A program made the position numbers and the translations under genes. A model generated the notes under the pieces. It ran no database searches. It had not been told where the DNA came from and was given only the letters and a program-made list of their open reading frames with translations. From positions 1-60,936 of the forward strand of contig CAZQWJ010000001.1 in the NCBI GenBank assembly GCA_964597265.1: a stretch of DNA of 60,936 nucleotides. The letters run 5' to 3'. This document shows positions 22,134-39,576 of the stretch, one piece after another (within the stretch, counting starts at the first letter, position 1; the number at the start of each line of letters is the position of its first letter). The stretch comes from an uncultured Candidatus Saccharibacteria bacterium (GTDB lineage: Bacteria; Patescibacteriota; 4484-211; JAGQKX01).

Positions 22134-22147
22134 AAACGTAACATAAT

Positions 22148-22535: not shown

Positions 22536-22578
22536 CTTTCTTTTCAATTAGAGTATATAAAGGGGGTGGAGCAAAGTT

Positions 22579-25900: not shown

Positions 25901-27208
25901 ATCTCCGGCGGAATAGCTGGTGCAATCACATCTATAGCAGGTACAGGTGGAACTATCCTGATTCCTATACTAGGTGCCATCATCGCTGGTGCATTTGTAA
26001 TTTTTGCATTGGTCATATCGATCTTAGCTACTCTCTACGGCAGATATTTGATTATCTGGATTCTTACTATGGTAGCGCCAATTATTTTCGCTATATCAGT
26101 ATTACCTTGGGGAAGAAGTATGCGCAATATGTGGTGGAAAACCGTAATTCCGATTAGTTCCATCCAAACCATTGTGGCAGTACTGCTTTCTATCGGCATA
26201 TTGCTCTTAAGCAAAGGGGTTGAAGCTGATGGGTTACTCAATCAAGCCGGTGTCTTCTTGATTGGTGGTGCAACACTATTTATGGCAACCAAGGCTCCCC
26301 AATTTGCCGTACAACTACTGGGTGCTGGTGGTATGGCTGGTGCAGCACTTGGAGCTCTCACTGCTGTTGGTTCCAAGCTCGGCGGCGTGACTCAAGCTGT
26401 TGGGCAAAAGGTATCCCACCCTCTTACTGCGGAAGGGATCGCTGAGAGGCAAGACAGAAAAGCAACACTTCAAGGGCTTGGCTCTTCTGTTACCAATACA
26501 CGCGCGGGTAGGATTGCCAACTTCTTCACCGGTGGCACGCTAGAAAGGTCTGCATATGCCAAACATGAAGCACGGGCCAAAATCGAGAGAAGGCAAAAAG
26601 AAATACAGTCCAAAGAGAAAGCAGCATTCAGCACTTCTGTCGCCCGCAAGAAGACAGATGAATATAAAGGCAATATCCAACAAAGATTGCAACAGCAGTT
26701 CGCCACCGAGGTCCGGCCTGAGCTAGAAATTCAAAGAGATTTGGGGATTACTGACCCTCGCCTACAAAACATCAAAGCAGGTGTAAATAGTTTCTTTAAT
26801 AACTCCGAAACAAAAATTACAGTACTCAACGACGCTGGCGATCCAGTTGCAATGACAGTCCCTGAGATGAAAGCTGAACTTGTACAAAAGTTAGACATTA
26901 GTGATGCAGCCAAACCTCAACTACTAGCTGCTCTGAACAAGGCAAGTGACTTGGATAATATCGCCAAGACTCTGGCAGATAACGGCTTCAGGGATCCCGA
27001 GCTAGCAAAAAACATTAAGAGGGAACTAATAAGACGAGCACACGTAAGTGACAAAGCAAACGTATATGCCTCAGGAGCACTAGGCAGCAGAGAGTTCTCC
27101 CTAAGGGGGAGCAGGAATCGTGCAGCAGAACGACAAGCGGAAAACACCCAAGCGGCTGCTCCGCAACAAGGTGGAGGCGGTGGTGGTGCCACCAGAGGTC
27201 AATCGTAA
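22991..27208 (+). CDS. giant VirB6/TrbL-like polytopic protein with about 850-aa extracytoplasmic N-domain and charged C-terminal tail
   Basis: An N-terminal anchor, a long beta-rich region, then about 8 TM helices (roughly aa 860-1130, e.g. 'RYLIIWILTMVAPIIFAISVLPW'). A Lys/Glu/Gln-rich tail ends in 'QQGGGGGGATRGQS'. Confidence 0.55.
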   Translation: MLSRLYTCFKSIVTAIAPISMGVIGLAIVQMTTPPVVFGQQTENNTAVFSGQVIPAFIGTAYDPSEAYQRLAGLPIYVFAYDSWTGGNFIINNFAVRTQIRLDGSFQAQGLPHGNHYGVYFPFRLEGGSVIRTDCTDPAASPCVGSVTGENVQFRMPQRGAVGNPDPDLIKDIFSYNMGDPGDIVVNTQISGETVRLGPSFLTSETRVDIANNTNTFPLVPTSSIKVTVKAHGHFLESGTFIDSSAYEIVAQRVVEVGGITNRLPVEAPLIKGRTTFPLQAAHDSDNPHNNDRVFQAYAPPGVYAITAWRADGATTYSSYAVGESVNSSLTGLAFLYVQGGDDWSLSLTRRHLMPLRVNQFTLWGRVHTSTGLVVNPTSPQININMRNINNSSVPPVTHSPKMRNESCDIPFWTFNYDGLFVGDTDCNDRDNSNLEDSDPVNQDPQHSYGLFALYESQSVNFTNIRTSIFEAYVDTTGYERNTVSTQQIFSKDGPQRIDLTVSPIDTSQGGILLEATPPISINTGRPSNPSGTQVFSIRPVDENIVIPASGKTYTADMLGQIKIPHADLVPRGRDFAPYDLKLLIKHPYSELFTDYGCEADSCALTYTGELLAPASITLAQKGFKEPEPYKFLGLIPADFLMPNPPTALANVSADHAHIEIAFTGADYYQSVVYLNNAGQVIDSLDESTVTGMSGNWTLNLQLPYVGPRTCSDGSVMAMEACRRDVDTMNTYTVVATADETVLSKTFRVQYNPGEDVAYATDPSWTFDFTNECDRLEADLKEQLEAEKQSKKRPVRGLDFATDILRNGLIDLEFSIQEIQDVHLPRLGCNASLSASRLAASGLQTLQSALIMEPLTVSIAVLNTWETIRGLANVFFIFILLIIGINQILGLDQKTWTANTMLPQLIVGIILANVSLLLVQFVLDVNNILTAWIFSVIFGVLQTSGISANAIAGVGLVGTSAATFSFLSSIISGGIAGAITSIAGTGGTILIPILGAIIAGAFVIFALVISILATLYGRYLIIWILTMVAPIIFAISVLPWGRSMRNMWWKTVIPISSIQTIVAVLLSIGILLLSKGVEADGLLNQAGVFLIGGATLFMATKAPQFAVQLLGAGGMAGAALGALTAVGSKLGGVTQAVGQKVSHPLTAEGIAERQDRKATLQGLGSSVTNTRAGRIANFFTGGTLERSAYAKHEARAKIERRQKEIQSKEKAAFSTSVARKKTDEYKGNIQQRLQQQFATEVRPELEIQRDLGITDPRLQNIKAGVNSFFNNSETKITVLNDAGDPVAMTVPEMKAELVQKLDISDAAKPQLLAALNKASDLDNIAKTLADNGFRDPELAKNIKRELIRRAHVSDKANVYASGALGSREFSLRGSRNRAAERQAENTQAAAPQQGGGGGGATRGQS

Positions 27209-27225
27209 GTATTCCACAGTACACT

Positions 27226-29388
27226 ATGCGTATGTTTGTTTCTCACTCCCCCAATAGAAAAAATCTCAACCTGCTGATCTTCATGCTTGTCATAGCGCTC
27301 ATGGTGCCACGAGCAAGCTATGCCAGTATATTTGATGGACTTGGTAGCGGCGGGAGCGGCATTTTTGGCGGCCTTGGTGAGCGAGTACAAACTATATTTG
27401 AAGGCCGCCGAGTGGATATAGGCGGTAGCACTGTACCGTTTATCCCAGACCCCCCTTCTCCACCGCAACCGGGTGATCCTCCGGCTCCAGGTGCAGGAGA
27501 GTTTGTTAAGGTATGGTTGGAATATGAATCATACTACCGAGGAACACAAGCACATGATATTGTGCAGGAGGATCCGCTAGAAAGCCTGCATAGAGAATAT
27601 ATTCAAGGTTCTGCCGAAGAACCAATGCACGGTTGTTGCGCATCCTGTGGAGAAGAAGTGCAAAACATTCAGCACTCTTTATGGGGCTGGTGTGGCGGAG
27701 AAGCTCAAACCCAAGGTATTCCAACTCCAGACGGAGCAGTCAGTTCGGTTCAAATATCTTCTCCAGGACCTAACGATAACACATTACCAGGTGCCGTCCC
27801 GAACAAATTTATTCGTAGAGATGGATATACATATGAGTGTGTGAAGACTGCCTGCTGGAGTGAAGAAATTCCCGGACCGACTCCCACTAGTTCCATAGAC
27901 CCAACCCCAACTCCTCAAGTTGTTTGGCACGAAGAACGCAGATACAACTATATGGAGTTTCAGACCATGATCTATCACAGTAACGACATCCTCCTCAGAG
28001 TTCATTATATGAATATCGGTGACGACGACATCCCGAAAGAACAAGTTAAAATTTATCGCTATGCGCGTGACGGCAAAGAATGGCCTCATAACCTTGATGC
28101 AATGGGCACTAACCCTCTTGCCGAATGTGCAGGTATTCCTTCATATGCAGGCTATGAAGTTGCGCCAATGACACATATGAATGCTCTTGATGCGCACGAA
28201 GAAAATATTTGTGGTCCACCCGGGGATGTTCTACCTCCTGGTGATTTGTCACAATCTACAGAACCACCAGCGGGTTCGTGCGATCAATTTTCTGATCGTT
28301 CTAGAAGAAACTCGATCCCTTCTGTTTCTCAAACATTCTCTCTGCTAGGTGGCAACACACCGCGAGACTTTAATTTTGTATGCGATCCCAACGATGGCGA
28401 GGAAGGAGAACGTTGTGGAAACAGGAGGCTCGTTCTTGAAGAGCGAGAACTAACCACCGAGGAATATTGTCGTCTGTTCTTTGAATTTAGAGATGTTACT
28501 AAAATCGGAGGGTGTGGGTATAACGCTTCATCCAACAACAGCATCCTGGGGCCCATAACCTACGAGGTTCGATATGGCGAAAATCAATCATCACGCTCTG
28601 TCGCAACGCTCTCAATTCCCATCGGCAACCCTGTTGATGACGAAGCTCGTCCTTTTGGGTGGCCTGCCACTGGACGTATCGCTGAAAACTGGGGCAACAC
28701 CGGCCAAGCACAAGCTCTCGCAAGTTACCGTAGCCTCGCAGACGGAAGATCCGAGTATGACGAATACCTGTTTTGTCCCGGCCAGGGCCAAACATATCCT
28801 CTCGATGGCCGCGCTCGTGCCGGAGACCAACTCCATCCTGGTATTGATATTGTTCCTGCATTTTCCTCAGCCAAACCACCCTTCGTATATACGACTCATG
28901 CTGGATGGGTGACATTTGCTGGAATAGATCCAAACTTTCCTGATAAAGGTCTCACTGTGCAGGTAGAAACCGACGTGAACCGTGACTGGATTCCTGACGT
29001 GGTCACACGTTACACACACTTACAGCCCGGATCTTTGACATTTGACGGGCAATATGGCTTAGACTCATCTTACTTTGCCAATCCGTATGCACCGACAGAT
29101 GGCCTGCCACATACGTTTGGTACTACTTTGTATGTTGCACGTAACACCCTCATTGGCTTAATGGGGGACACTGGATCTGATGGCGTCAGACAACTTCAAT
29201 ACGAGATACCATATACCAACCCTGAGCATGGTACGCCTCCCGCAAACGGAAACATCGGATCTGAGCGATGTTCAGATGATCCATACATGAGTAGCTGTGT
29301 GGTTGGAGATCAAAGTGAATCACAATTTTTCTATCGGTTACGATTTGAGCCGAATCTCGTTTTTGGCCCAACATACGTAAACCCGTAG
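27226..29388 (+). CDS. secreted Cys-rich protein with C-terminal M23 (LytM) domain lacking the HxH motif
   Basis: Signal peptide 'VPRASYAS'. 'LHPGIDIV' (HxxxD, 28834-28848) is present, but the 'PHLHFE' position reads 'RQLQYE' (Gln codons at 29191-29193 and 29197-29199). Confidence 0.65.
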   Translation: MRMFVSHSPNRKNLNLLIFMLVIALMVPRASYASIFDGLGSGGSGIFGGLGERVQTIFEGRRVDIGGSTVPFIPDPPSPPQPGDPPAPGAGEFVKVWLEYESYYRGTQAHDIVQEDPLESLHREYIQGSAEEPMHGCCASCGEEVQNIQHSLWGWCGGEAQTQGIPTPDGAVSSVQISSPGPNDNTLPGAVPNKFIRRDGYTYECVKTACWSEEIPGPTPTSSIDPTPTPQVVWHEERRYNYMEFQTMIYHSNDILLRVHYMNIGDDDIPKEQVKIYRYARDGKEWPHNLDAMGTNPLAECAGIPSYAGYEVAPMTHMNALDAHEENICGPPGDVLPPGDLSQSTEPPAGSCDQFSDRSRRNSIPSVSQTFSLLGGNTPRDFNFVCDPNDGEEGERCGNRRLVLEERELTTEEYCRLFFEFRDVTKIGGCGYNASSNNSILGPITYEVRYGENQSSRSVATLSIPIGNPVDDEARPFGWPATGRIAENWGNTGQAQALASYRSLADGRSEYDEYLFCPGQGQTYPLDGRARAGDQLHPGIDIVPAFSSAKPPFVYTTHAGWVTFAGIDPNFPDKGLTVQVETDVNRDWIPDVVTRYTHLQPGSLTFDGQYGLDSSYFANPYAPTDGLPHTFGTTLYVARNTLIGLMGDTGSDGVRQLQYEIPYTNPEHGTPPANGNIGSERCSDDPYMSSCVVGDQSESQFFYRLRFEPNLVFGPTYVNP

Positions 29389-29395: not shown

Positions 29396-30409
29396 ATGGA
29401 CATTCACTCGCTCAAAGAGCGACTACGATACAATAAAAAACGCCTCGCTTTGTTGACACTAGGTATGGTATTGATAGTATCGATACTACTGGTAGTGAGC
29501 CGGCTGGATACACTATTGGTTACACCCATACCTCCGTCCCCTTCGCAGCGTGCTGACGTCACATCTGCACAACACCTAAAATTTGCAAATCCAGAGGATA
29601 CCGCTTATCCTTCGTCGTATTCTTTTGAAGATCCTATTATTGTTCCTGATACTATACGGGTTTACCGAATTCTGCCTGGGCCGGATGAACTATTTTCGAA
29701 TGCAAATCTTCCTGCAATGGCTAAAGCGTTTGGTTTTAATGTAGATGCACAGGTTACCTCTATTACACAAGGGTACATGTATTATCAGGAAGGAAATGAA
29801 CTTGCTATTATACCTACAAAAGGTTCTATTCGTTTCTCGTCTGACCTTACAACCTTGCCTCCTTTTAATATCCAGGATGCGGGAGCACAACCACATGTTA
29901 TAGACAGCGTGCGCTTGGTGCTTAGTAGAGCTAGACTTGATAATCCACTCATTAATTGGCAGGGCGCTGAGGTCAAAATGTATGAGCTGCGAAACAACAG
30001 CTTAGAGGAAGTATTTAGCCTTGGAGAGAAAACATTTTATCACGTTACTTTGCCACTTCGGCTAAACAATTTGCCCTTACTCAGTACGGAAAAACAATAT
30101 GTCCGTGTAGCTCCAAACGGAAACGTCCTTGGTGCATTTATCTGGTATCCAAATTTGGATATTTCTGGCGTAGAAGAATGGAAAATCATTGACTACTTGA
30201 GTGCAGTAGGGCGAGTCAGGAGTAATCAAGGTTTGTTTTGGGAATCAGATACTCGAGCGCTACATGAGCAGATTACATTTACGCAAACGGGATTAACATA
30301 TTTTTTGCCAAATGATTTTTTTAGCAACCCGACTGGTGAATTTCACATTTTGCCTGCGTATATGTTTACCAACAATGTAGACTCAGTAATCGTTTCTGCG
30401 TTGCCATAA
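29396..30409 (+). CDS. hypothetical membrane-anchored exported protein
   Basis: 337 aa with a single N-terminal TM (LALLTLGMVLIVSILLVV). No recognisable motif. It is embedded in the T4SS-like locus. Confidence 0.45.
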   Translation: MDIHSLKERLRYNKKRLALLTLGMVLIVSILLVVSRLDTLLVTPIPPSPSQRADVTSAQHLKFANPEDTAYPSSYSFEDPIIVPDTIRVYRILPGPDELFSNANLPAMAKAFGFNVDAQVTSITQGYMYYQEGNELAIIPTKGSIRFSSDLTTLPPFNIQDAGAQPHVIDSVRLVLSRARLDNPLINWQGAEVKMYELRNNSLEEVFSLGEKTFYHVTLPLRLNNLPLLSTEKQYVRVAPNGNVLGAFIWYPNLDISGVEEWKIIDYLSAVGRVRSNQGLFWESDTRALHEQITFTQTGLTYFLPNDFFSNPTGEFHILPAYMFTNNVDSVIVSALP

Positions 30410-30414: not shown

Positions 30415-33400
30415 ATGCAAGTTACAAAAAACGGACAATTCATCATCACAGTTGCCTGCATCATCGCTGTTATAATGTTGTCACGAAACGAGTTGGCCAT
30501 AGCACCAACTCCCATTGCACATGCACAGCAAGTCCCCGACGTGGCATGTATCGGAAACTCTGTCTGTCAATATCTAGACGGTGTCATGGGGGATTCAAGA
30601 ATAAGTTCTCTGCAACACCTCAAGTTTCTCTCGCCTGTATTCAATATGACTTCTCCATACTTTGTTGATATTGTTAATACAATCTCTCAATGCTCAAATT
30701 ATTGGGAACAGCTCGATGGTATAGCAGGAAACGCATACAACTTTCTCAATGGACCATATATCCCAGACTGGGTTAACACTGCCCGAAATATACCTGCAAT
30801 AGGTAGCAAACCAATAGTTCTTACAGAGATCGGTTGGTATGAGCTTCTTCAGGGGAGTGATCGAGCCACCGCCCTTAATAATCTTACAAACTCAATTAAC
30901 TGGCTCAAAAATCCATCTAATGGTGTAATCGGGTCAATGTTGTTTAATGTGTTTAACAACAATCCAGGATGGAGCGACTACTCAATGAGTGATACGGAGA
31001 TTAACACTATCTGCAGCGGGTCATGCGATAACATTGGCGCTAATTCCGCAGTGTATTATTCATCAAGCGACGCAAGTTTTTATGACCCTGCAGGATCCCA
31101 CAACATGGGCTGGACCATAGAAATAGCTAACAACGATACCAACCCTCAATTACCTTCTGTAATGCCGGGTATCAACAGTGCTCATTCGCGAAACATAACT
31201 CCGGTGATCCGTATTGGAGTTATGGATAGCAGTGGCGGTTTTGACACTCCAGCCCAGTACGTTAATTTCTTAGTAACACTCAATGATCTCATCGCCCAAA
31301 ATCATCAGAAAGACGTATATGTCATTGTGGGCCCCAACGAGCCGGAAACAGAGTGTTGGGCATCACAACAGTGTTTTAATGGCTGTAGCGCAGGAGGAGG
31401 AGAGCAACAAGCAAGTTGCGCTCTCGATGATTGGCCTGCCGTCGGACCAAACGTCAGTGCCCAAAACCTGGTATGTGCGTGCTCGGGTAGCACCTGCGCG
31501 CCATGGCAACCTCAAACATTTAATAGACCCACCAATCAAGATACGGGACAGGCAGACGGTACAGGACAAGGTTTCTATCAGTTGTTTGACTATGATGTCA
31601 GCCTTTTGTTGGAAATCCCGCCTGTCTTGCCCTATGTTTCCGTAGGGACACCCCCGGGAGGAGGGCCAGGTATTCCGCCTCCTGGTGGTGGCGGCGGTGG
31701 GACGTGTAATCCCTTTAACTGCTTTGCACCGTATGTCGTAGATTTTGCAACGTCTCTGGAGTGTGCAGCAAATTCGTTGCGGGTAGAAGAACCTACATGG
31801 TATTGGTTTGATCGATACGGTCCATATTGTGATAACGAAACACGCTCACTTCCTTTCGGATACAATTTCTGGGTAAACTTTTATGATAAATACGCACCTG
31901 TCGGAGCGGCCCAGCGCACCTGTTGTAATTCTTCACGAAACTGCAGTGAGAGTCCTCCGGGAAATCCTCCACGTCCTCAGGATGTTGGCATGGCTTGCCC
32001 GGCACAAAGTGATCCCTTGCGTCAACCAGGAGCTGAAGAATTTGACTACTACCGAGGGGCACTTGATACATGCGGACTCACACTTGCCCAGCAAAGGTGG
32101 ACCACACAAAACACACTTGGATTGAGCATACCGGAGCTTGCCGATCACATGTACAGCCTGAACATGACGTACCTCGGTTTGTCATTTAATAACGTTCCAC
32201 GTGCTGATGTAGAGGCGGTTCTTACCAAAGCACAAGAAAATAATATCAACCCATGGCTCTTGATGGGAATGTGGGCAACCGAAAGTGCATGGAGTCAAAC
32301 ACAGTCGTGCCAAGGCGGAGGCGGATCTGTAAATGGATGTCTCTCTTGCCCAGTCGGGTTCAACAATCCTGGCTGGGACCATTGCAAGGTAGTAACTGAC
32401 CCTCTGTACAGTGGCGGTACTCACTTTGGTCAAGATTTCCTCGGACCACAAGGCTCGCCCGTATATGCAACAACTGGCGGAATAGTGGAAACTGCTGGAT
32501 ATATAGCCGGTCAAGGTGTAGGGTATATGATTAGAATTGCCGGAAACGATGGAAACGCTCATGTTTATTTCCACTTAAACCTGAATGTTAATGATTACGT
32601 TATCGCAGGCGATACTGTTACTGCAGGTCAACAGATTGCAGAAATTGGCCCTGTGTGTCTACCCTCAGCTGTTCCTGGTTGTGACCCAAAACCTACGTCT
32701 ACGTGTGCCTCAGGGTGCGGTAACGGATTAACTAATGCTACCCACTTACACTACGAAATATATCCACCACCAAACCTCAGTAAACCCGCAAATTGTAGCC
32801 TGGAACCAGATCCCATAGACCTTCTCCCGCCTTCATGTGGAGGTACATGTACGGGTACTGGTGGTGGAACACCAGGCGGTCCAGGAGAAGGAGGAAGCCC
32901 ACCACCTCCTGGAACATATGGAACGGGAGTGGGATGCAGCACCACCGGCTACCATCCAACTGGTGGAAGCGCAACGAACCGGTTCCACTGGGATGGGCAT
33001 CGGCCGGTTGATTTGTTTGCCGTAGACGGGGCACCAGCATATGCTCCCTATGATGGCGTGTCGTATCCCGTGGATGATCTGACCGGAGGATATACCATAG
33101 AATTTGTTCCTTCCGACCGATGCCAACCAGCTATGTATTATGCGCATAATAGAAACTCGAACCGGGTTAGTGGCAACGTCACGAGAGGGCAACAAGTAGG
33201 TTTTGTCAGTAATTCTGGCTCGGCTTGTCAGCCATGTACCTCCCAAAACTGTACAACAGGTGAACCTGGCTGCAGTCAACCTGGCCGCTGTCGTCCCGGT
33301 GACACCAACTGCAACCTGTGCAATGGATCAAACGGTGGCAGATGTTACTGCAATGCCTCTGCAAATGGACAATGCTCTGGGCCTCCACATATTCATCTTG

Positions 33401-33585
33401 CTGCTAGTACCAATGGTAGCTTTACTACGCCGGGACCGAACATCTGCGCTGTGCAGCTCTTATCTGACTGGGGAGCTAACGTCACACAAGGACCAGAAAT
33501 AATGTGTTGCAATCCGGATCTCCCTAATTTAAGTGGCTGCCAGCCAGCCCTGAATCAATCGACATGGACACCACCAATTCTTTAA
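30415..33585 (+). CDS. multidomain Cys-rich cell-wall hydrolase: GH-like region + SLT/lysozyme-like + two M23 peptidase domains
   Basis: An N-terminal TM. 'LTEIGWYE' and 'VGPNEPE' are GH-like. 'NPWLLMGMWATESAW' is the SLT motif, with the catalytic Glu codon at 32281. M23 number 1 has 'HFGQD' and 'THLHYEI'. M23 number 2 has 'HRPVD' and 'PPHIHL'. Gly/Pro linkers include 'PPGGGPGIPPPGGGGGG'. Confidence 0.75.
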   Translation: MQVTKNGQFIITVACIIAVIMLSRNELAIAPTPIAHAQQVPDVACIGNSVCQYLDGVMGDSRISSLQHLKFLSPVFNMTSPYFVDIVNTISQCSNYWEQLDGIAGNAYNFLNGPYIPDWVNTARNIPAIGSKPIVLTEIGWYELLQGSDRATALNNLTNSINWLKNPSNGVIGSMLFNVFNNNPGWSDYSMSDTEINTICSGSCDNIGANSAVYYSSSDASFYDPAGSHNMGWTIEIANNDTNPQLPSVMPGINSAHSRNITPVIRIGVMDSSGGFDTPAQYVNFLVTLNDLIAQNHQKDVYVIVGPNEPETECWASQQCFNGCSAGGGEQQASCALDDWPAVGPNVSAQNLVCACSGSTCAPWQPQTFNRPTNQDTGQADGTGQGFYQLFDYDVSLLLEIPPVLPYVSVGTPPGGGPGIPPPGGGGGGTCNPFNCFAPYVVDFATSLECAANSLRVEEPTWYWFDRYGPYCDNETRSLPFGYNFWVNFYDKYAPVGAAQRTCCNSSRNCSESPPGNPPRPQDVGMACPAQSDPLRQPGAEEFDYYRGALDTCGLTLAQQRWTTQNTLGLSIPELADHMYSLNMTYLGLSFNNVPRADVEAVLTKAQENNINPWLLMGMWATESAWSQTQSCQGGGGSVNGCLSCPVGFNNPGWDHCKVVTDPLYSGGTHFGQDFLGPQGSPVYATTGGIVETAGYIAGQGVGYMIRIAGNDGNAHVYFHLNLNVNDYVIAGDTVTAGQQIAEIGPVCLPSAVPGCDPKPTSTCASGCGNGLTNATHLHYEIYPPPNLSKPANCSLEPDPIDLLPPSCGGTCTGTGGGTPGGPGEGGSPPPPGTYGTGVGCSTTGYHPTGGSATNRFHWDGHRPVDLFAVDGAPAYAPYDGVSYPVDDLTGGYTIEFVPSDRCQPAMYYAHNRNSNRVSGNVTRGQQVGFVSNSGSACQPCTSQNCTTGEPGCSQPGRCRPGDTNCNLCNGSNGGRCYCNASANGQCSGPPHIHLAASTNGSFTTPGPNICAVQLLSDWGANVTQGPEIMCCNPDLPNLSGCQPALNQSTWTPPIL

Positions 33586-34679
33586 AGATAACAAAAAACA
33601 ATTTTCTACTCTTTCTGGGAGCACTTCTTATTCCAATAATCTTGGCGGTAGTATATATATCTTTCTCCTCGCTAAACGATCGTAGTTTCAAAAACATTGA
33701 TACGAGTGATGGACCAGCTATAGTGCAAGCACAAAAGTTTACGACTGGTGCCGTAGAATATCCTCAAGTGTTTTTTAACCCTCAAAACAGTGCTTCATTA
33801 CTCGTATACATCAATTCCCTGGAGCATCATATCGAGGTCAATGATGGTTTCAGAACAGGGAAAATTCGTCCTGAAGGGTTTTATTGGGTAAACGAAATAT
33901 CATGGGGACCTCATAATCTGGCTATCATAAGTACTGGACAGGTAGAAGCAGACAAGTCTGACTATCTTGTCAATTCCGCAGCACTTGGAAGCAGCAGGCC
34001 ATTCAATTACGAAAAACTTCCCTTTTTCGGAGAGAACTACACATGGTCCCACGACGGAAAACGAGTGGCGTTCTTTGGAAACATAGACTATGGCAAAGGA
34101 ACAGCACACATTCTGATATATACGTTTGCAACGCAACAACAAGAACAAATCGAAGATATTATAATTCAAGGCCCTACCGAATTGTTATGGCTACAGGATA
34201 ATAGCTTTATTGTGTATGAACTGCCTGATGGGCGTGACTTGGAGGATCCGACAATTATCACGTTATTCCGAGTTTCTCAAAACAGTGAAGGTGCTTGGGT
34301 GAAAGAGCCATATGCTGGAACATATGCCCCTCCCAAAATCAGTCATGACAGAACAACAATTGCATATCCAGCAGTTACTTCTTATGTTATTCACAACATG
34401 GTCAACGATATACGATACGAGGTGCTTGATCTCGATTTGGTTGCACCTCATTTTGTTTATGACTTTGTCGATAATAGCACCATTAGTTTTGTGTATCAGA
34501 GCGACAATTCCTTTTACCTGCTGCTGTATGATTTTACAAAACATCAAGGCACCAGTTTCAAACTGGACTTTCTATCTGCACCACAGCTGAAAATCCAAAC
34601 GATTACTGTTCAGGATGATAAAAAGATATTGCTTCGTTTTAGTAATGACGAACTCTACGCCATCACGCCACCTCTTTAG
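33564..34679 (+). CDS. hypothetical membrane-anchored protein, possible beta-propeller (PD40/TolB-like repeats)
   Basis: N-terminal TM (FLLFLGALLIPIILAVVYISF). 'WSHDGKRVAFFG' and 'ISHDRTTIAYP' resemble PD40 repeats. Confidence 0.45.
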   Translation: MDTTNSLKITKNNFLLFLGALLIPIILAVVYISFSSLNDRSFKNIDTSDGPAIVQAQKFTTGAVEYPQVFFNPQNSASLLVYINSLEHHIEVNDGFRTGKIRPEGFYWVNEISWGPHNLAIISTGQVEADKSDYLVNSAALGSSRPFNYEKLPFFGENYTWSHDGKRVAFFGNIDYGKGTAHILIYTFATQQQEQIEDIIIQGPTELLWLQDNSFIVYELPDGRDLEDPTIITLFRVSQNSEGAWVKEPYAGTYAPPKISHDRTTIAYPAVTSYVIHNMVNDIRYEVLDLDLVAPHFVYDFVDNSTISFVYQSDNSFYLLLYDFTKHQGTSFKLDFLSAPQLKIQTITVQDDKKILLRFSNDELYAITPPL

Positions 34680-34758: not shown

Positions 34759-35295
34759 ATGCCTTTTACGCATAAGATTCCGCAAAATGTAACACAGTAC
34801 GAAAGCCGTATCGTTGGCAACTTTACCTCTCGCCAATTTATTTATTTGGCAGCTGGAGGCATTATTATTATGCTCTTTTTCATGCTGCCGTTTCCGCCTC
34901 TCGTTGGAATCATCGTAGCATTGGTGGTCCTACCTGTAACGCTCCTGTTGGCACTCATTAGTTTTGATGGTCGAAGAAGTGATATTTGGATCATCAATTT
35001 TGTGAATGCTGTTGCCGAACCCACGCAACGGATATGGGAAAAGGACGAAGTGCCACCACAAGTGCTTTTACCATCGTATGTTGTCCCTCACCACACAACG
35101 GAAAAAAGGCAAAAAACTGGTACCGATTTGGAGGAGTTTTTGGGTTTTTGGCGTGCCAATGAAGCAAAAAGCGACTATTCTTCAGAGGAACAGGCATTTC
35201 TTAACCGCATAGCCATGATGAGTCGATATTATGAAAGTGCTACCCAGGAACAATCGTCTCTGACAACAGAGCACAGCGACCAAACCGAACCATGA
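34759..35295 (+). CDS. PrgI-family (VirB3-like) T4SS membrane protein
   Basis: 'IPQNVTQYESRIVGNFTSRQFIYLAAGGIIIMLFF' followed by a second TM. This is the typical PrgI N-terminal pattern, and the gene lies upstream of VirB4. Confidence 0.6.
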   Translation: MPFTHKIPQNVTQYESRIVGNFTSRQFIYLAAGGIIIMLFFMLPFPPLVGIIVALVVLPVTLLLALISFDGRRSDIWIINFVNAVAEPTQRIWEKDEVPPQVLLPSYVVPHHTTEKRQKTGTDLEEFLGFWRANEAKSDYSSEEQAFLNRIAMMSRYYESATQEQSSLTTEHSDQTEP

Positions 35296-36602
35296 GAGAT
35301 TTAGCTACTAATAACAACAATCGAGCCATTTTTTCTCTTCCCGGAACCATTGTTTCGGCATCTCCGGTGCAAAAGATTGCCAATCAACGGGCAAATCGTC
35401 AATTGTCGCGTGCCGCGCTTTCACCTTCTGTTACGCCGATTTGGCGTCAACAAATATTTGCCCCATCTGCTGAACTGCAACGTCGCTTTACACCCCAAAA
35501 CGACATACCCAATGCAGCAACTGCTACTCCCCAATTATCGACCGAAGCCGAAGGCACAGCCAAACCACCTGCGCCACTCGCCCCGCAGCCGGCGGCAGTG
35601 CCAGATCAGCAATCACTACCCGATGACAGAAAGCAACAACCTACCCCATCCACAGCGCCAGATACCAAACCCGCTGCTAATGCACCACAACCCGTGCCCT
35701 CTACCAAACCAAAGCCAGCTTCCCCTACTCTGCCGCAGGATAAACCGCAACAACCGCCACCATCGCAACCCTCCCCTCCTGCCTCTGATTCTCATGAAAC
35801 AAACGCAGAGCTAAGCAAGTCTCTGGATGCTATCACGCATATACGGCAACAAATCCAATCACAAGAGCAAAAATTAAAACAGCTTGAGCAGCAAACACCC
35901 CAAGGACAACAAGAAGACATTGATACTGAGCAAAAAACAAAGGAAGCGCTTGTAAAAAACCTTGATCAAGCCATACAAAACACGCAAACGGAGCTACAAA
36001 CATACGCGGCTATGCCTGGAGCCAATACGACCATATTGGACGGGCTCAAAAAACAATTCAGGCAGCAAAAAGAATTATTCAACCGGTTAGTGCACGAAAG
36101 AGATTTGCTTGCCAAAAAGAAAGAGGCACTCAAGGAAAAAGCGCTCGAAGAGCAAAAAGCAAAAAAACAACTCGACTCCCTGCAACAACAGCATGAGCAG
36201 CTTGCACAGCAGTATCCGGTAGCTTCCTCACAAGCTGCGGCATCACCATCATCACCTCCTCCAACAGCTGCCTCTGCTCCACGACCAGCTCCGACTCAAG
36301 CGCCGACAAAAGTTGTTATGCCTGCAATCACCAAACAACCCAATGCAATCAACGGTATAGTTCAAAATGCGCAGGGGAAAATGATAACCGAGGCCATTGT
36401 TATCATCAAAGCGGCTGACCAGCGCCCCCTTAGGGCACTTAAGACCAACGAGCTTGGACAGTTCTGGATTACGACCGCCTTAGAAAACGGCGACTATGAG
36501 ATTCAGACAGAAAAAGACGATTTGAGCTTTGGTACAATAAAAATACATCTTGATGGATCGGTGGTCGAACCAATTCTTATCAAAGAACAGGCTGCATCGT
36601 GA
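35292..36602 (+). CDS. Pro/Gln-rich coiled-coil protein with C-terminal carboxypeptidase-regulatory-like beta domain
   Basis: A low-complexity PxxP tract (PPAPLAPQPAAVPDQQ...), a Q/E/K heptad region, and a C-terminal 'INGIVQNAQGKMITEAIVIIK...GDYEIQ'. No TM is seen. Confidence 0.45.
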   Translation: MRDLATNNNNRAIFSLPGTIVSASPVQKIANQRANRQLSRAALSPSVTPIWRQQIFAPSAELQRRFTPQNDIPNAATATPQLSTEAEGTAKPPAPLAPQPAAVPDQQSLPDDRKQQPTPSTAPDTKPAANAPQPVPSTKPKPASPTLPQDKPQQPPPSQPSPPASDSHETNAELSKSLDAITHIRQQIQSQEQKLKQLEQQTPQGQQEDIDTEQKTKEALVKNLDQAIQNTQTELQTYAAMPGANTTILDGLKKQFRQQKELFNRLVHERDLLAKKKEALKEKALEEQKAKKQLDSLQQQHEQLAQQYPVASSQAAASPSSPPPTAASAPRPAPTQAPTKVVMPAITKQPNAINGIVQNAQGKMITEAIVIIKAADQRPLRALKTNELGQFWITTALENGDYEIQTEKDDLSFGTIKIHLDGSVVEPILIKEQAAS

Positions 36603-37294
36603 CTATGGCTGGATTTATAGGGAGCACTCAAAATCATCTCGACATCATTGATATAAAAGATGATGTACTCGTACTCAAAGGAGGACGCTATCGTATTGTT
36701 CTGGAAGCACAGGCAATCAACTTTGACCTTTTGTCAGAGGCCGAACAGGATGCCGCGATTTACTCCTATGCCAACCTTGTTAACTCGTTGGATTTTCCGA
36801 TGCAAGTAGTGATCCGAACCAGGCAAGTTGATATTACCGAGTACATTGCGTATCTGCAGGGGTATAGCAAATTACAACCCACTGCAACGCTTAGGCAGCA
36901 ACTCGAAAACTACATCAAATTTGTACGCGAATTGGTATCAGAAAATACCGTACTGTACAAGAGGTTTTACGTTGTCATCCCACACACCAGCAAAGTCGCA
37001 GAACAATCCCAGAGTTTCCTCGACCCTTTTTTCAAGATCTTTGGCAAACAAGAACGTGTCAATTTGGAGTACTCTGCGAAACAACTGGAGGAGGCCAAGA
37101 AAGTTTTTACACAACGCACCCAAGAGCTCGCATGGCAGTTTCGTCGGCTAGGTATCGGTATCAGACAGCTCAATACAGAGGAACTTATCCGCTTGTTTTA
37201 TGATATTTATAACCCGGAAACAGGACAAAATGACGGCTTACAGACCGATCTTATGGGCTACACCAGCACCATTATCAAACCAAGTGTAGCTTAG
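36599..37294 (+). CDS. stand-alone protein resembling the N-terminal domain of VirB4/TrbE
   Basis: 'IIDIKDDVLVLKGGRYRIVLEAQAINFDLLSEAEQDAAIYSYANLVNSLDFPMQVVI' parallels the N-domain pattern of Gram-positive VirB4 proteins. No P-loop is present. Confidence 0.45.
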   Translation: MTMAGFIGSTQNHLDIIDIKDDVLVLKGGRYRIVLEAQAINFDLLSEAEQDAAIYSYANLVNSLDFPMQVVIRTRQVDITEYIAYLQGYSKLQPTATLRQQLENYIKFVRELVSENTVLYKRFYVVIPHTSKVAEQSQSFLDPFFKIFGKQERVNLEYSAKQLEEAKKVFTQRTQELAWQFRRLGIGIRQLNTEELIRLFYDIYNPETGQNDGLQTDLMGYTSTIIKPSVA

Positions 37295-37302
37295 AACGTA
37301 TT

Positions 37303-39576
37303 ATGGCAAATCCGTTGCAGGGTCTACAAAAATTAATTAACAAACTCCTGCCGCTCCCATCAACTGCGGCTCAACCGGCAAACACCGGAGGCGCAACAGT
37401 GTCAGAGGAAGAAAAAGCTAAGCAAGAAGCAGAGAATGCAGAGGCAACAAAAAAAGCCGAGCAGTTTGCGCAGGGTATGCTCACTATCCGCGACCTGATC
37501 GCTCCTTCTGGCATGGAGCATGATTTCGGCTTTCTGAGGATTGGCCAGACATACTACCGGACGTTTTTTATCGCTGGGTACAGACGAGAAGTAGGAGCCA
37601 ACTGGTTATCACCGCTCATTAACTTTCCGCATGCCTTGGATATTGCCATGTTTTACTATCCCGTTGATGCACGGGAAGTACTAAACAACTTACGCCGGAA
37701 AGTTACCGAGATGGAGGCCGAACTCAACATTGAACAGCAACAGGGGCGCATTCTCGATCCAAGCGTTCAACTAGCCCTACAGGACGCACGCGCCTTGCAA
37801 GAAGATCTCGTAGCCGAACGGGAACGCTTTTTTCAATTTGGCCTTTATATAACCATTCCTGCAGAATCTCAAGAAGAGCTTAACCTCATTACCAAACAGC
37901 TCGAATCTGTCCTGGGATCAGCTACGCTCGTATCACGAAAAACTACTCTCCAGATGGAGGATGGTTTTCGATCGACATTGCCGTTTTTCCTGGACAAGAT
38001 TCAAGTGTACCGAAACATGGATACCACCTCGATTGCGACGACATTTCCATTTACGTCATCTAGTTTGACGTCTGATCGGGGGATCTTGTATGGCATTAAC
38101 GAACACAATGCCAGTTTGATTATCTTTGATCGATTCAGTCTTCCCAATGCCAACATGGTAGTATTTGCCAAATCAGGATCCGGTAAAAGCTATTTTGTAA
38201 AACTAGAAGCATTGCGGTCGTTAATGTTAGGTACGGAAGTCATTATTATTGACCCTGAAAATGAATACAAGACTATGGCAGAAGCCATCGGTGGCGAGTA
38301 TATTGCGCTTGATTTTAATTCATCATCAAAACTTAACCCATTTGATCTATCGCAGGTATACGAAGAAGGTGAAGATGAATTGGGCTTAAAGATCCTGACC
38401 CTGCACTCCATGATGAAGGTCATGCTGGGGGACATGAATCCTTCTGAAGAAGCAATCTTAGATCGCGCCCTTTTAGAAACATACCGACTCAAAGGGATTA
38501 CTCAGGATCCTGAAACCCAAAAACTCGACCCGCCGCTTTTGGAAGATCTGTACAAAGTTCTACTGGGAATGGAAGAAGCTGAGGCAAAAAATATTTCGGA
38601 TCGGCTGCAAAAATTTGTCGTTGGGTCTGCCAAAGGACTTTTTGACCAGCAGACCAATGTCGATATTCACAATACGTTTACGGTTTTTGGGATCAGGGAT
38701 CTGGAAGAAAGCGTGCGGCCAATTGGCATGTTCGCCGTGCTTGACTATATTTGGACGCGGGTACGCAGAGATCGCCGCAAGCGGATCCTGATTGTTGACG
38801 AGGCGTGGTTTATGATGAAGCACCCGGACAGTGCAAACTTTCTCCACAGTATTGCCAAGCGCGGACGTAAATATTACCTGGGTCTTACCACTATTACTCA
38901 AGACGTGGAAGATTTTTTGAATACAGACAAAGGCCGTGCTGTTGTAACCAACGCATCTATCCAAGTATTGTTTAAGCAATCTGTTTCCGCCATTAATCAT
39001 TTGACTGAGGTATTCTTCCTTTCCGAAGGGGAGCGAAATCTACTCATGTCTGCCAATGTGGGCGAAGGGCTATTTTTTGCCGGAGAAGCACACGTCGCCA
39101 TGCAGGTAATCGCCTCTCAGGACGAGCACGAAATCATTACCACCAATCCTGCGGAACTGGAAGCTATTGAACGGGCAAAGCAGTTGCAAGAAGTCGAGGT
39201 CGTTACAGAAGAGATTGGCGGGGAGCAAGAGGCAGCTGCATATGATTTTGGTACATCGGTTGACCAAGCACTACAAGAAGAAGCGCCTTCTGAGTCCGAG
39301 GCCAGCGGGGTGATAGAGTTTCAGCAACAGCCAGCAGAAGAACCACAACCACCCGCCCAGGAAACCGAGGAACCCTCTGCACAGGAGATCATCGCTCAGG
39401 CAATGAGCGAAGTGGAGGACTCTCAGTCGCAAGCAGAGATACCCGACACGTTGACCACTGAGATGCTTGATGAAAATCTCACGCAAACACCGCAAGAAAC
39501 TAGTGGGCAAGTAGATACTGAAGAGCAACCAGAAGGGGTCGTCCCAGAGGATGGCGCTACCACGTCATCGAGCTAA
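37303..39576 (+). CDS. virB4: VirB4/TrbE-family T4SS ATPase with acidic C-terminal extension
   Basis: N-domain 'TIRDLIAPSGMEHDFGFLRIGQTYYRTFFIAGY'. Walker A 'FAKSGSGKSYF' and Walker B 'RILIVDEAWFMM'. A C-terminal tail of about 140 aa is rich in Glu/Gln/Pro. Confidence 0.85.
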   Translation: MANPLQGLQKLINKLLPLPSTAAQPANTGGATVSEEEKAKQEAENAEATKKAEQFAQGMLTIRDLIAPSGMEHDFGFLRIGQTYYRTFFIAGYRREVGANWLSPLINFPHALDIAMFYYPVDAREVLNNLRRKVTEMEAELNIEQQQGRILDPSVQLALQDARALQEDLVAERERFFQFGLYITIPAESQEELNLITKQLESVLGSATLVSRKTTLQMEDGFRSTLPFFLDKIQVYRNMDTTSIATTFPFTSSSLTSDRGILYGINEHNASLIIFDRFSLPNANMVVFAKSGSGKSYFVKLEALRSLMLGTEVIIIDPENEYKTMAEAIGGEYIALDFNSSSKLNPFDLSQVYEEGEDELGLKILTLHSMMKVMLGDMNPSEEAILDRALLETYRLKGITQDPETQKLDPPLLEDLYKVLLGMEEAEAKNISDRLQKFVVGSAKGLFDQQTNVDIHNTFTVFGIRDLEESVRPIGMFAVLDYIWTRVRRDRRKRILIVDEAWFMMKHPDSANFLHSIAKRGRKYYLGLTTITQDVEDFLNTDKGRAVVTNASIQVLFKQSVSAINHLTEVFFLSEGERNLLMSANVGEGLFFAGEAHVAMQVIASQDEHEIITTNPAELEAIERAKQLQEVEVVTEEIGGEQEAAAYDFGTSVDQALQEEAPSESEASGVIEFQQQPAEEPQPPAQETEEPSAQEIIAQAMSEVEDSQSQAEIPDTLTTEMLDENLTQTPQETSGQVDTEEQPEGVVPEDGATTSSS

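What the first reader, a model, noticed from the sequence alone, without database searches (positions are those of the whole stretch)
30415..33585. A 1056-aa cell-wall hydrolase with four catalytic-looking modules: SLT, two M23 domains with Cys-rich insertions, and a GH-like N-region
One polypeptide carries an SLT/lysozyme-like motif ('GMWATESAW') and two M23 domains with intact HxxxD and HxH motifs ('HFGQD...HLHYE' and 'HRPVD...HIHL'). Each M23 domain is interrupted between the GxxG segment and HxH by a Cys-dense insertion, for example 'CQPCTSQNCTTGEPGCSQPGRCRPGDTNCNLCNGSNGGRCYCNASANGQC'. Modules are joined by Gly/Pro linkers. A glycan-strand cutter combined with two peptide cross-link cutters goes well beyond a VirB1-type 'hole puncher'. 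It could target a foreign (host or prey) wall. A membrane-anchored DsbA-like oxidoreductase at 1454-2263 could supply the disulfide formation this protein would need.
Basis: partly seen in the sequence, partly recalled or inferred. Interest (0 to 1): 0.65.

Follow-up and report, generated by a model that had tools for sequence, protein, structure and literature searches.

The report
Multi-module wall hydrolase in T4SS operon
An uncultured ultra-small (Patescibacteria/CPR) bacterium encodes a secreted, disulfide-rich enzyme with a rearranged sugar-cutting barrel, an unknown helical domain and two intact peptide-cutting M23 domains, and because the gene sits inside the type IV secretion operon it most likely opens cell walls for that machine.

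Summary
The 1056-aa ORF is real. Two Peptidase_M23 domains are supported at profile level. Both keep HxxxD, the middle His and HxH, and each has a Cys-rich insert just before HxH. The "GH-like" N-region is a confident TIM barrel (AF2 pLDDT 94). I show it is a circular permutant of a clan GH-A-type barrel: re-permuted, it aligns colinearly with homologues of normal order (E 1e-77). The link to GH5 itself is only marginal.

The "SLT" call fails. There is no Pfam, PDB-sequence or Foldseek support. That region is a rare CPR-specific ~200-aa helical, Cys-rich domain ("module B"). It ends in an invariant T-E-S that resembles only the first helix of SLT.

The gene lies in a chromosomal Gram-positive-type T4SS operon (three pilins … PrgI, TraC-like, VirB4) next to recF-dnaN-dnaA. 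Relatives with other module sets occupy the same operon slot, and 18 of 32 genome loci encoding module A carry T4SS genes nearby.

The best reading is a Sec-exported functional analogue of VirB1/PrgK. Published surveys say VirB1 is usually missing from Patescibacteria T4SS. Whether it cuts the bacterium's own wall or the host's wall is open. This is a new variant of a known kind, of moderate interest.

The parts
30415..30525 (+). N-terminal signal peptide or signal anchor (residues 1-37; K5, hydrophobic stretch 9-22, A35-H36-A37|Q38)
   Evidence: Read from the sequence. Homologues start module A right after similar xAQ motifs. Cleavage was not tested.
30526..31374 (+). Module A (residues 38-320): circularly permuted clan GH-A-like (beta/alpha)8 barrel. 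Candidate nucleophile E138 (TEIGW), candidate acid/base N308-E309 (GPNEP), and invariant C45/C320 flanking the new termini.
   Evidence: AF2 pLDDT 93.8, pTM 0.92, eight beta-alpha units. Generic TIM-barrel Foldseek hits. Invariant residues. Permutation shown. Marginal GH5 link.
31375..31704 (+). Cys-rich connector plus Gly/Pro linker (residues 321-430, 5 Cys)
   Evidence: Conserved with P0002-P0009. No family hit.
31705..32310 (+). Module B (residues 431-632): CPR-specific helical, Cys-rich domain of unknown fold with invariant W620, T622-E623-S624 and six invariant Cys.
   Evidence: Alignments. Only 46 representative clusters among 1.84 billion proteins. No Pfam, PDB or Foldseek match. AF2 pLDDT 68, pTM 0.73.
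32338..32862 (+). M23 domain 1 (residues 642-816): H670/D674, H720, H777/H779. Cys-rich insert at 747-773 (window 32653-32733).
   Evidence: Pfam 57.5 bits, E 1.6e-15. LytM and lysostaphin among PDB sequences, E 2e-8. Motif alignment.
32950..33582 (+). M23 domain 2 (residues 846-1056): H862/D866, H911, H992/H994. Cys-rich insert at 937-989 (window 33223-33381, 10 Cys).
   Evidence: Pfam E 1.4e-5, 25.6 bits. PDB M23 peptidases 3slu and 6muk at E 5e-3. 50% identical to the C-terminus of P0008 including the insert.
21702..22962 (+). Array of three VirB2-like T4SS pilin genes at the head of the operon
   Evidence: PF18895 T4SS_pilin on the identical loci L001 and L002. ORFs listed.
22991..27208 (+). 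1405-aa protein with a C-terminal polytopic membrane region; a conserved operon member (possible VirB6-like channel protein, unproven)
   Evidence: Sequence. No Pfam hit. Syntenic in L036.
27226..29388 (+). 720-aa secreted protein with a degenerate C-terminal M23 domain (HPGID and YTHL kept, HxH replaced by QLQ)
   Evidence: Pfam E 0.03. Alignment. Syntenic 699-aa (faint M23) and 762-aa proteins.
29396..30409 (+). 337-aa membrane-anchored protein of unknown function; a conserved operon member
33564..34679 (+). 371-aa membrane-anchored protein. Its start overlaps the target's stop by 22 nt.
   Evidence: Weak TolB-like hit.
34759..39576 (+). PrgI/VirB3 (34759-35295), 436-aa protein, TraC-like (36599-37294) and VirB4 ATPase (37303-39576)
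   Evidence: Pfam hits. Gaps or overlaps between genes are -4 to 79 nt.
1454..2263 (+). Membrane-anchored DsbA-like thiol-disulfide oxidoreductase (CPFC), a possible but unlinked source of disulfides
   Evidence: Thioredoxin_4 E 2.2e-28 and DSBA E 6e-11. CPFC at residue 103.

Best explanation
This is the dedicated cell-envelope hydrolase of the chromosomal, Gram-positive-type (MPF-FATA-like) type IV secretion system of a Patescibacteria (CPR) bacterium from sludge or wastewater. It is a functional analogue of VirB1/PrgK/CwlT built from different parts. It is exported by Sec (shown only by sequence features). It probably folds outside the cell with about 24 disulfides (inferred from 48 Cys in the mature chain, an even number in each module, and a DsbA-like enzyme in the genome). 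It then acts next to the T4SS/pilus assembly site. Module A is a circularly permuted clan GH-A-like barrel. Its chain termini fall in the loop right after the NEP acid/base motif, and the C45-C320 pair probably staples them together. Module A would cut a glycan strand with E309 as acid/base and E138 as nucleophile (inferred). The two M23 domains, 29% identical to each other, would cut peptide stems or cross-bridges through a Zn site of H/D/H plus two catalytic His (motifs shown, activity inferred). The Cys-rich inserts sit in the loop before HxH that borders the substrate groove, so they probably tune specificity or access (inferred). Module B is a CPR-specific domain that is either a new glycan-cleaving or glycan-binding unit (invariant T-E-S). 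Its role is unknown.
For: Operon: the twelve genes from the pilin array to VirB4 lie on one strand, with gaps or overlaps of -22 to 113 nt. The target overlaps the next gene by 22 nt. T4SS genes are identified. Synteny: P0008 (GH5 + module B + M23) and P0005 (module A + M23) occupy the same slot in related operons. Family-wide: 18 of 32 independent genome loci with module A have T4SS genes in the flank, 16 with a pilin gene and 6 with PrgI/TraC/VirB4. M23 domains. Barrel and permutation. GH-A link. Relatives fuse module A to SLT_3, SLT_4+M23 or GDSL esterase. Module B partners are M23, GDSL, M15, CHAP, Glyco_hydro_cc and CBM60, so all these fusion partners degrade or bind cell envelopes. [quoted passage not shown]
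Against: There is no biochemical or expression evidence. The GH-A assignment is marginal at sequence level (hhalign E 1e-4 with probability 56%; PDB E 0.048; Pfam E 0.015), and known clan GH-A enzymes are not muramidases. M23-2 is slightly below Pfam's gathering score. In PrgK the LytM and CHAP domains turned out to be inactive regulators (PMC11323569), so intact motifs do not prove activity. Proteins with module A or B also occur outside T4SS clusters: P0014 and P0017 sit next to a suf operon, and 14 of 32 loci show no T4SS gene.
Confidence: 0.7

Rival explanations
1. It is a host-directed lytic tool. The enzyme is released or displayed at the contact site and breaches the wall or surface polysaccharide of the host cell that the epibiont lives on, letting the T4SS or pilus reach the host membrane. 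It would not remodel the producer's own wall. This overlaps with the best explanation in mechanism but differs in target.
For: The Patescibacteria T4SS lacks relaxases and is essential for epibiotic growth, so it is thought to act on the host (PMC12102498). The protein carries two divergent M23 domains (29% identity) plus a GH5-like barrel whose known relatives cut non-peptidoglycan beta-glycans. Module composition varies between closely related operons, as expected for adaptation to different hosts. The pilin arrays are variable.
Against: There is no evidence of release or targeting. No immunity gene was recognised next to it. T4SS-associated hydrolases that have been characterised act on the producer's wall (PrgK, PMC11323569). 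The host of this lineage is unknown.
Confidence: 0.3
2. It is mostly a regulatory or scaffolding protein. As in PrgK, only one module is catalytic, and the others (one or both M23 domains, module B) dock the protein to the T4SS or restrain activity.
For: PrgK's LytM and CHAP domains are inactive and down-regulate the muramidase (PMC11323569). The Cys-rich inserts lie next to the active-site HxH and could occlude it. Module B has no detectable enzymatic fold.
Against: Both M23 domains keep all five catalytic or metal residues, unlike PrgK's LytM and unlike the degenerate M23 of the neighbouring 720-aa protein. E138, N308-E309 and E623 are invariant across the families.
Confidence: 0.15
3. It is a general autolysin or cell-division hydrolase, and its position beside T4SS genes is incidental.
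For: Paralogues with modules A and B occur outside T4SS clusters. M23 enzymes commonly act in cell separation.
Against: The slot within the operon is conserved in at least three lineages, with tight gene spacing and overlaps. T4SS genes lie next to module A in 18 of 32 genomes.
Confidence: 0.07
4. Module B is a true, circularly permuted lysozyme/SLT-type glycosidase, with the catalytic Glu helix moved to the C-terminus. In that case the reader's four-catalytic-module picture would hold.
For: T-E-S is invariant at the end of a confident helix. The 30 residues before it align to the first helix+ES of SLT-like regions in P0051 and P0020. Module A in the same protein is permuted. Relatives carry SLT_3 or SLT_4 in the equivalent position.
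Against: Re-permuted module B gives no SLT hit in Pfam, and hhalign does not extend beyond the 30-residue motif. Foldseek finds nothing. The model is only moderate (pLDDT 68).
Confidence: 0.2

Closest known systems
PrgK of Enterococcus faecalis pCF10 (T4SS cell-wall hydrolase; LytM + SLT + CHAP)
   Same: It is encoded inside a Gram-positive-type T4SS operon, has an N-terminal membrane or signal segment, and carries several extracellular hydrolase-type domains including an M23/LytM domain. Its presumed role is to open peptidoglycan for the channel.
   Different: PrgK's LytM is degenerate and metal-free, and its glycosidase is an SLT-fold muramidase (PMC11323569). Here there are two M23 domains with intact motifs, no CHAP, no detectable SLT fold, a permuted TIM-barrel glycosidase-like module, and heavy Cys content.
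Two-domain VirB1 analogues of monoderm T4SS (TraG of pIP501, CwlT of ICEBs1; SLT or muramidase + CHAP/NlpC-P60)
   Same: They combine a glycan cutter with a peptide cutter and are associated with a T4SS (as summarised in PMC12102498).
   Different: Both domain families differ: a GH-A-like barrel instead of a lysozyme fold, and M23 metallopeptidases instead of Cys peptidases.
LytM/lysostaphin-type M23 endopeptidases (PDB 2b44, 4qp5)
   Same: They are the best PDB sequence matches for M23-1 (E 2e-8). HxxxD, the middle His and HxH are conserved.
   Different: The loop before HxH is 27 and 53 residues long here, with 4 and 10 Cys, instead of about 6-8 residues. There are two tandem divergent copies. 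Substrate is unknown.
Clan GH-A glycoside hydrolases (GH5 cellulases, PF00150; Glyco_hydro_cc, PF11790)
   Same: The fold is a (beta/alpha)8 barrel. NEP and a Glu-bearing strand lie three strands apart. The top PDB profile hit is the GH5 cellulase 5ecu. hhalign matches the PF00150-positive barrel of the syntenic protein P0008.
   Different: The strand order is rotated by four beta-alpha units (termini after NEP). No Pfam GH family reaches threshold. The context suggests a wall substrate, which is not typical for GH-A.
GH70 glucansucrases versus GH13 (a known circularly permuted GH barrel; own knowledge, plus MalS domain permutation in PMC10223318)
   Same: This is a precedent that a glycosidase TIM barrel can be circularly permuted and remain active.
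   Different: It is a different clan (GH-H) with a different permutation point. The literature search here surfaced no report of a permuted clan GH-A barrel.
Peptidase and lysozyme homologues next to virB4 in Ca. Southlakia epibionticum ML1
   Same: They are Patescibacteria T4SS-adjacent wall hydrolases, reported as essential for epibiotic growth (cited in PMC12102498).
   Different: They are separate genes downstream of virB4 and have a lysozyme fold. No sequence comparison was made here.

Membership tests
Peptidase_M23 (PF01551; LytM/lysostaphin type) | Significant match to the family profile | tested here: met
   Whole protein E 1.1e-20 with 2 stretches. M23-1 alone scores 57.5 bits against a cutoff of 28.7. 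M23-2 alone scores 25.6 bits, E 1.4e-5, slightly below the cutoff. PDB hits are M23 only.
Peptidase_M23 (PF01551; LytM/lysostaphin type) | Zn ligands HxxxD and the second His of HxH, plus catalytic His (middle His and first His of HxH) | tested here: met
   H670/D674/H720/H777/H779 and H862/D866/H911/H992/H994 align with the LytM motifs. The neighbouring 720-aa protein fails this test (QLQ in place of HxH).
Peptidase_M23 (PF01551; LytM/lysostaphin type) | Bound Zn and endopeptidase activity on peptidoglycan | not testable with these tools
   Requires protein expression and muropeptide analysis.
SLT / family-1 lytic transglycosylase (PF01464 and related SLT_3, SLT_4) | Significant match to an SLT-type profile | tested here: not met
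   No hit for the whole protein or the isolated segment at E<=10, or after re-permutation. The family profile has no lysozyme or SLT hit in PDB.
SLT / family-1 lytic transglycosylase (PF01464 and related SLT_3, SLT_4) | Catalytic Glu-Ser at the end of a helix | tested here: met
   T622-E623-S624 is invariant or nearly so in 28 sequences and lies at the end of helix 190-203 of the model.
SLT / family-1 lytic transglycosylase (PF01464 and related SLT_3, SLT_4) | The remainder of the lysozyme-like fold follows the ES motif (about 90 residues with the further conserved motifs) | tested here: not met
   The domain ends within 10 residues of ES. In P0014, P0017 and P0026 the protein itself ends there.
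SLT / family-1 lytic transglycosylase (PF01464 and related SLT_3, SLT_4) | Lysozyme-like three-dimensional fold | tested here: inconclusive
   Foldseek gives 0 hits in PDB and none in BFVD. However, the model is moderate (pLDDT 68), and Foldseek cannot see permutations.
Clan GH-A (4/7 superfamily; GH5-like) | (beta/alpha)8 barrel | tested here: met
   AF2 pLDDT 93.8 with eight beta-alpha units. Foldseek hits are all TIM barrels, best E 3e-5, TM 0.4-0.5.
Clan GH-A (4/7 superfamily; GH5-like) | Asn-Glu acid/base after strand 4 and nucleophile Glu after strand 7 (three strands apart) | tested here: met
   NEP follows the 8th predicted strand and TEIGW is on the 3rd, which is three strands apart going round the barrel. 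In standard-order homologues NEP precedes TExG by 106-126 residues. Both motifs are invariant. The 3D distance was not measurable because no coordinates were available.
Clan GH-A (4/7 superfamily; GH5-like) | Standard N-to-C strand order | tested here: not met
   The domain is circularly permuted. Native order gives two swapped alignments (6e-45 and 2.5e-39), and re-permuted order gives one colinear alignment of 261 columns at E 1e-77.
Clan GH-A (4/7 superfamily; GH5-like) | Detectable homology to a curated GH-A family | tested here: inconclusive
   hhalign against PF00150-positive domains gives E 1e-4, probability 56%. The PDB profile top hit is GH5 5ecu at E 0.048. PF11790 scores E 0.015 on one re-permuted homologue. 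Nothing reaches a curated threshold.
T4SS-associated wall hydrolase (functional class of VirB1/PrgK/CwlT) | Encoded within a T4SS gene cluster, with conserved synteny | tested here: met
T4SS-associated wall hydrolase (functional class of VirB1/PrgK/CwlT) | Sequence homology to VirB1, TrsG or CD419 hydrolase domains (SLT, CHAP) | tested here: not met
   No SLT or CHAP hit. It is an analogue, not a homologue.
T4SS-associated wall hydrolase (functional class of VirB1/PrgK/CwlT) | Required for T4SS assembly or function | not testable with these tools
   Needs genetics in a cultivated relative.
DsbA-type oxidoreductase (ORF 1454-2263) | Thioredoxin fold with a CxxC site and extracytoplasmic anchoring | tested here: met
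   Thioredoxin_4 E 2.2e-28, DSBA E 6e-11. CPFC and an N-terminal hydrophobic anchor. A functional link to the hydrolase was not tested.

The most novel reading that the evidence does not exclude
The permuted GH-A barrel and module B would found new enzyme families. Patescibacteria would use them, coupled to their host-interaction T4SS, to breach the envelope of the host cell. The variable module sets and Cys-rich M23 loops would act as host-range determinants. This would supply the 'missing VirB1' of the CPR T4SS and give a molecular handle on how epibionts open their hosts.
Probability: 0.3. Interest if true: 0.8.

Novelty: new variant of a known kind. Interest (0 to 1): 0.55.

Why it matters
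Patescibacteria make up a large share of bacterial diversity and depend on hosts. Their chromosomal T4SS is essential for epibiotic growth in the one lineage tested. Surveys note that a VirB1-type wall hydrolase is usually absent near virB4 and that other glycosidases may replace it (PMC12102498). This protein family is a concrete candidate for that missing function:

- It sits next to pilin or T4SS genes in 18 of 32 genomes.
- It occupies a fixed operon slot in the lineages examined.
- It carries swappable hydrolase modules.

It also appears to be the first case of a naturally circularly permuted clan GH-A-type barrel. At least three arrangements coexist among homologues, and the cut falls inside a loop that is closed by a disulfide. 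That is of interest for protein evolution and engineering. Finally, it defines a rare CPR-only domain (module B) with enzyme-like conservation. Each of these points can be tested directly by expressing single domains.

Tried and rejected
- **SLT by profile.** Pfam on the whole protein and on the isolated segment at E<=10 gave nothing. The module B family profile against PDB sequences gave nothing relevant.
- **Module B by fold.** Foldseek against PDB returned 0 hits, and BFVD returned 2 meaningless hits.
- **Module B as a permuted lysozyme.** Re-permuted sequences against Pfam gave no SLT hit. hhalign of native and re-permuted profiles against SLT_3/SLT_4/SLT-like regions of relatives aligned only the 30-residue helix+ES (E 1.3e-3, probability 19%), with no extension. 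This idea is not supported.
- **Weak module B hits as a bridge to SLT.** The weak hits in the 1.84-billion-protein search (P0088-P0093) carried no SLT domains in Pfam.
- **Module A by profile against PDB.** Native order gave no significant hit. Re-permuted order gave only E 0.048.
- **Module B as a strictly T4SS-linked domain.** Rejected. P0026 follows a pilin array, but P0014 and P0017 lie next to a suf operon.
- **Mobile element or plasmid origin of the cluster.** Rejected. The window has tmRNA, tRNAs, recF-dnaN-dnaA, leuS and pyrG.


Full report
**1. The observation**

The ORF at 30415..33585 (+) is present and encodes 1056 aa. All quoted motifs are there: TEIGW 137-141, GPNEP 306-310, ATESAW 621-626, HFGQD 670-674, HLHYE 777-781, HRPVD 862-866 and HIHL 992-995. 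The protein has 49 Cys (4.6%) against 0.60% for the other 41 ORFs examined in the window. One Cys is in the signal segment. The remaining 48 split into even numbers per module: 12 in module A plus connector, 10 in module B, 10 in M23-1, and 16 in M23-2 plus linker. That pattern is what full disulfide pairing would give. The N-terminus (K5, hydrophobic 9-22, AHA|QQ at 35-39) looks like a Sec signal peptide or anchor. Homologues begin their first domain after similar xAQ motifs.

**2. The two M23 domains are real**

- Pfam finds Peptidase_M23 with two stretches (E 1.1e-20).
- Scanned alone, M23-1 scores 57.5 bits (E 1.6e-15). M23-2 scores 25.6 bits (E 1.4e-5), just under the 28.7-bit gathering score.
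- Against PDB sequences, M23-1 hits LytM and lysostaphin (E 2e-8). M23-2 hits only the Neisseria M23 peptidases 3slu and 6muk (E 5e-3).
- A MAFFT alignment with LytM and homologues shows both domains retain HxxxD, the middle His and HxH.
- The inserts are shared with the nearest relatives (P0005 and P0007 for M23-1, P0008 for M23-2). They vary in length and are nearly absent in P0006.
- The two domains are only 29% identical to each other.

**3. The N-terminal "GH-like" region is a circularly permuted barrel**

No Pfam family hits residues 31-335. A 26-sequence alignment (A2) gave a high-confidence AF2 model: pLDDT 93.8, pTM 0.92, eight beta-alpha units. Foldseek returned only generic TIM barrels (TM 0.4-0.5).

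The invariant residues are E138 on the 3rd strand and G-P-N-E309-P after the 8th strand. That puts them three strands apart, which is the beta4/beta7 geometry of clan GH-A rotated by four units.

Six homologues (P0044, P0045, P0050-P0053) match the two halves in the opposite order. In them NEP precedes TExG by 106-126 residues. With hhalign, module A re-permuted in silico aligns colinearly with them over 261 columns (E 1e-77). The native order splits into two swapped alignments (6e-45 and 2.5e-39). A third arrangement, with the last beta-alpha unit at the N-terminus, appears in P0045, P0051 and P0052 (E 3e-8), and probably in P0008.

In standard-order homologues the sequence after NEP reads "NEP..W..C-[4-23 residue loop]-C-I-G..YMNAV", and P0050 lacks both Cys. 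In the query the chain ends at ...NEPETECWASQQC320 and begins ...VAC45IGNSVCQYL. The termini were therefore created inside a loop flanked by two invariant Cys. Those Cys probably form a disulfide that staples the new ends. This is an inference, because no coordinates were available.

The link to known GH-A families is only suggestive:
- hhalign of the re-permuted profile against the PF00150-positive barrels of P0008, P0009 and P0017 gives E 1e-4, probability 56%. TEIGW aligns with GEFGV, and the two NEP motifs lie a few columns apart.
- The top PDB profile hit is the GH5 cellulase 5ecu, at E 0.048 re-permuted against 0.4 native.
- PF11790 scores E 0.015 on one re-permuted homologue.

**4. The "SLT" region is not an SLT domain**

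Residues 431-632 ("module B") are conserved in a small family (A1). An exhaustive profile search of 1.84 billion representative proteins found only 46 clusters (31 at E<1e-30). In most of them the domain is at the extreme C-terminus of 1200-2300-aa proteins.

Those proteins also carry M23, GDSL/SGNH, M15_4, CHAP, Glyco_hydro_cc, NAGPA and CBM60 domains. The company module B keeps is therefore envelope-degrading.

Module B has no Pfam hit and no PDB sequence hit. Its AF2 model is moderate (pLDDT 68, pTM 0.73, helical) and has no Foldseek match in PDB or BFVD.

Invariant residues in 28 sequences include six Cys, N432, F444, N484, N612-P613, W620 and E623 (numbering corrected).

The 30 residues ending in T-E-S do resemble the first helix+ES of SLT-like regions in relatives (P0051 at E 1.3e-3, probability 19%; P0020). 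However, the domain stops within 10 residues of the ES. In P0014, P0017 and P0026 the protein itself ends there. Re-permuting module B does not extend the similarity.

**5. Context**

The window is chromosomal: tmRNA, two tRNA-Ser, recF, dnaN, dnaA, yidC, leuS and pyrG.

The target is the seventh of twelve same-strand genes, with gaps or overlaps of -22 to 113 nt. In order they are:
- three VirB2-like pilins (PF18895 on identical loci; ORFs);
- a 1405-aa protein with a polytopic C-terminal region;
- a 720-aa protein with a degenerate M23 (HxH replaced by QLQ);
- a 337-aa anchored protein;
- the target;
- a 371-aa protein;
- PrgI/VirB3, a 436-aa protein, a TraC-like protein and VirB4.

The cluster abuts recF-dnaN-dnaA.

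This matches the published description of the Patescibacteria T4SS: MPF-FATA-like, near dnaA, with pilin arrays, no relaxase, and VirB1 rarely associated. The authors state that other glycosidases might fill the VirB1 role, and that T4SS-adjacent peptidase and lysozyme homologues are essential in S. epibionticum (PMC12102498).

Homologues come from WWE3, Woesebacteria, Amesbacteria, Dojkabacteria, Paceibacterota and unclassified Patescibacteria. The sequence itself occurs in activated-sludge, wastewater and biogas metagenomes.

**6. Conserved slot, variable modules**

| Protein | Modules | Position |
|---|---|---|
| Query | A (permuted) + B + M23-1 + M23-2 | T4SS operon slot |
| P0008 | PF00150-type barrel + B + M23-2-type | Exactly the same slot, in an operon syntenic from DUF2298 to dnaN |
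| P0005 | A + M23-1-type | Same slot |

The query thus carries the union of the modules seen in its relatives. Further relatives fuse module A to SLT_3 (P0031, P0033), to a weak SLT_4 plus M23 (P0020), or to a GDSL esterase (P0018).

Across 32 independent genome loci encoding module A, 18 have T4SS genes within the available flank: 16 with a pilin gene and 6 with PrgI/TraC-like/VirB4.

The association is frequent but not universal. P0014 and P0017 lie next to a suf operon, while P0026 directly follows a four-gene pilin array.

**7. Interpretation**

The best-supported reading is a Sec-exported, disulfide-stabilised envelope hydrolase dedicated to the T4SS. It is a functional analogue of VirB1/PrgK, not a homologue.

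- *Shown:* domain identities for M23, the barrel fold and its permutation, invariant catalytic-type residues, operon membership and synteny.
- *Inferred:* catalytic activity of each module, disulfide bonding (including C45-C320), the role of the inserts in shaping the substrate groove, and the substrate.

Because PrgK's LytM and CHAP domains proved to be regulatory rather than catalytic (PMC11323569), intact motifs are necessary but not sufficient evidence.

Whether the enzyme opens the producer's own wall or the host's envelope cannot be decided here. Three things keep the host-directed reading alive at about 0.3: the GH5-like barrel, the two divergent M23 domains, and the shuffling of modules between close relatives.

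The DsbA-like ORF (Thioredoxin_4, CPFC, anchored) shows the organism can make extracytoplasmic disulfides. It is 28 kb away and is not specifically linked to this gene.

**8. Novelty and score**

A multi-domain T4SS wall hydrolase is a known kind. New here are:
- the domain set (a permuted GH-A-like barrel instead of a lysozyme fold, two apparently active M23 domains with Cys-rich inserts, and a CPR-only domain);
- the demonstration that homologous barrels exist in at least three circular arrangements;
- a candidate for the "missing VirB1" of the Patescibacteria T4SS.

I rate it a new variant of a known kind, with interest 0.55.

Noticed in passing
window 27226-29388 (+): The 720-aa secreted protein two genes upstream (the 337-aa ORF lies between) has a degenerate M23 domain: HPGID and YTHL are kept, but HxH is replaced by QLQ. 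It also has 16 Cys. Syntenic counterparts exist (699 aa in L037, 762 aa in L036). It could be a non-catalytic regulator or activator of the hydrolase, like EnvC/NlpD-type dLytM factors.
   Followed up: partly
homologues P0045, P0051, P0052 and P0008 (proteins): A third barrel arrangement appears to exist, in which the last beta-alpha unit (the equivalent of query residues ~155-190) sits at the N-terminus before beta1. If so, this barrel family occurs in at least three circular permutations.
   Followed up: partly
window 21702-22962 (+): There is an array of three divergent VirB2-like pilin genes at the head of the operon, as described for Microgenomatia and Saccharimonadia in PMC12102498.
   Followed up: partly
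window 39565-45148: The T4SS operon ends directly against recF-(SH3/PEGA protein)-dnaN and the divergently transcribed dnaA, so it sits at the replication origin region. The GC-skew sign change near 44 kb fits this.
   Followed up: partly
window 14206-21696 (+): Three consecutive PMT/PMT_2-type glycosyltransferase genes plus a DUF2298 membrane protein lie immediately upstream of the pilin array. DUF2298 is also upstream in the syntenic locus L036. They may glycosylate pilins or surface proteins.
   Followed up: no
window 22991-27208 (+): This 1405-aa protein has no Pfam hit. It has a long extracellular-looking N-terminal part and a C-terminal region with many hydrophobic segments and a charged coiled tail. 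It may be the divergent VirB6/PrgH-like channel subunit that surveys fail to find in Microgenomatia.
   Followed up: no
window 5796-6207 (-): The tmRNA gene has the tag peptide AITQTFDNIATAFAVPAFA, which ends in AFA rather than the common LAA.
   Followed up: no
window 9608-11443 (-): A 611-aa SpoIID-domain protein is another peptidoglycan-remodelling enzyme elsewhere in the window.
   Followed up: no
window 2298-3080 (+) and 2886-4121 (-): The TatD-like ORF and the convergent alpha/beta-hydrolase ORF overlap by about 195 nt on opposite strands. The hydrolase ORF runs about 195 nt into the 3' end of the TatD gene. Both ends are fixed by stop codons, so this is a real convergent overlap or one of the two is mis-called.
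   Followed up: no
L039 15242-17806 and L040 6032-8464: In the genomes where module A/B paralogues lie outside T4SS clusters, the neighbouring SufB gene carries an intein with a LAGLIDADG endonuclease.
   Followed up: no
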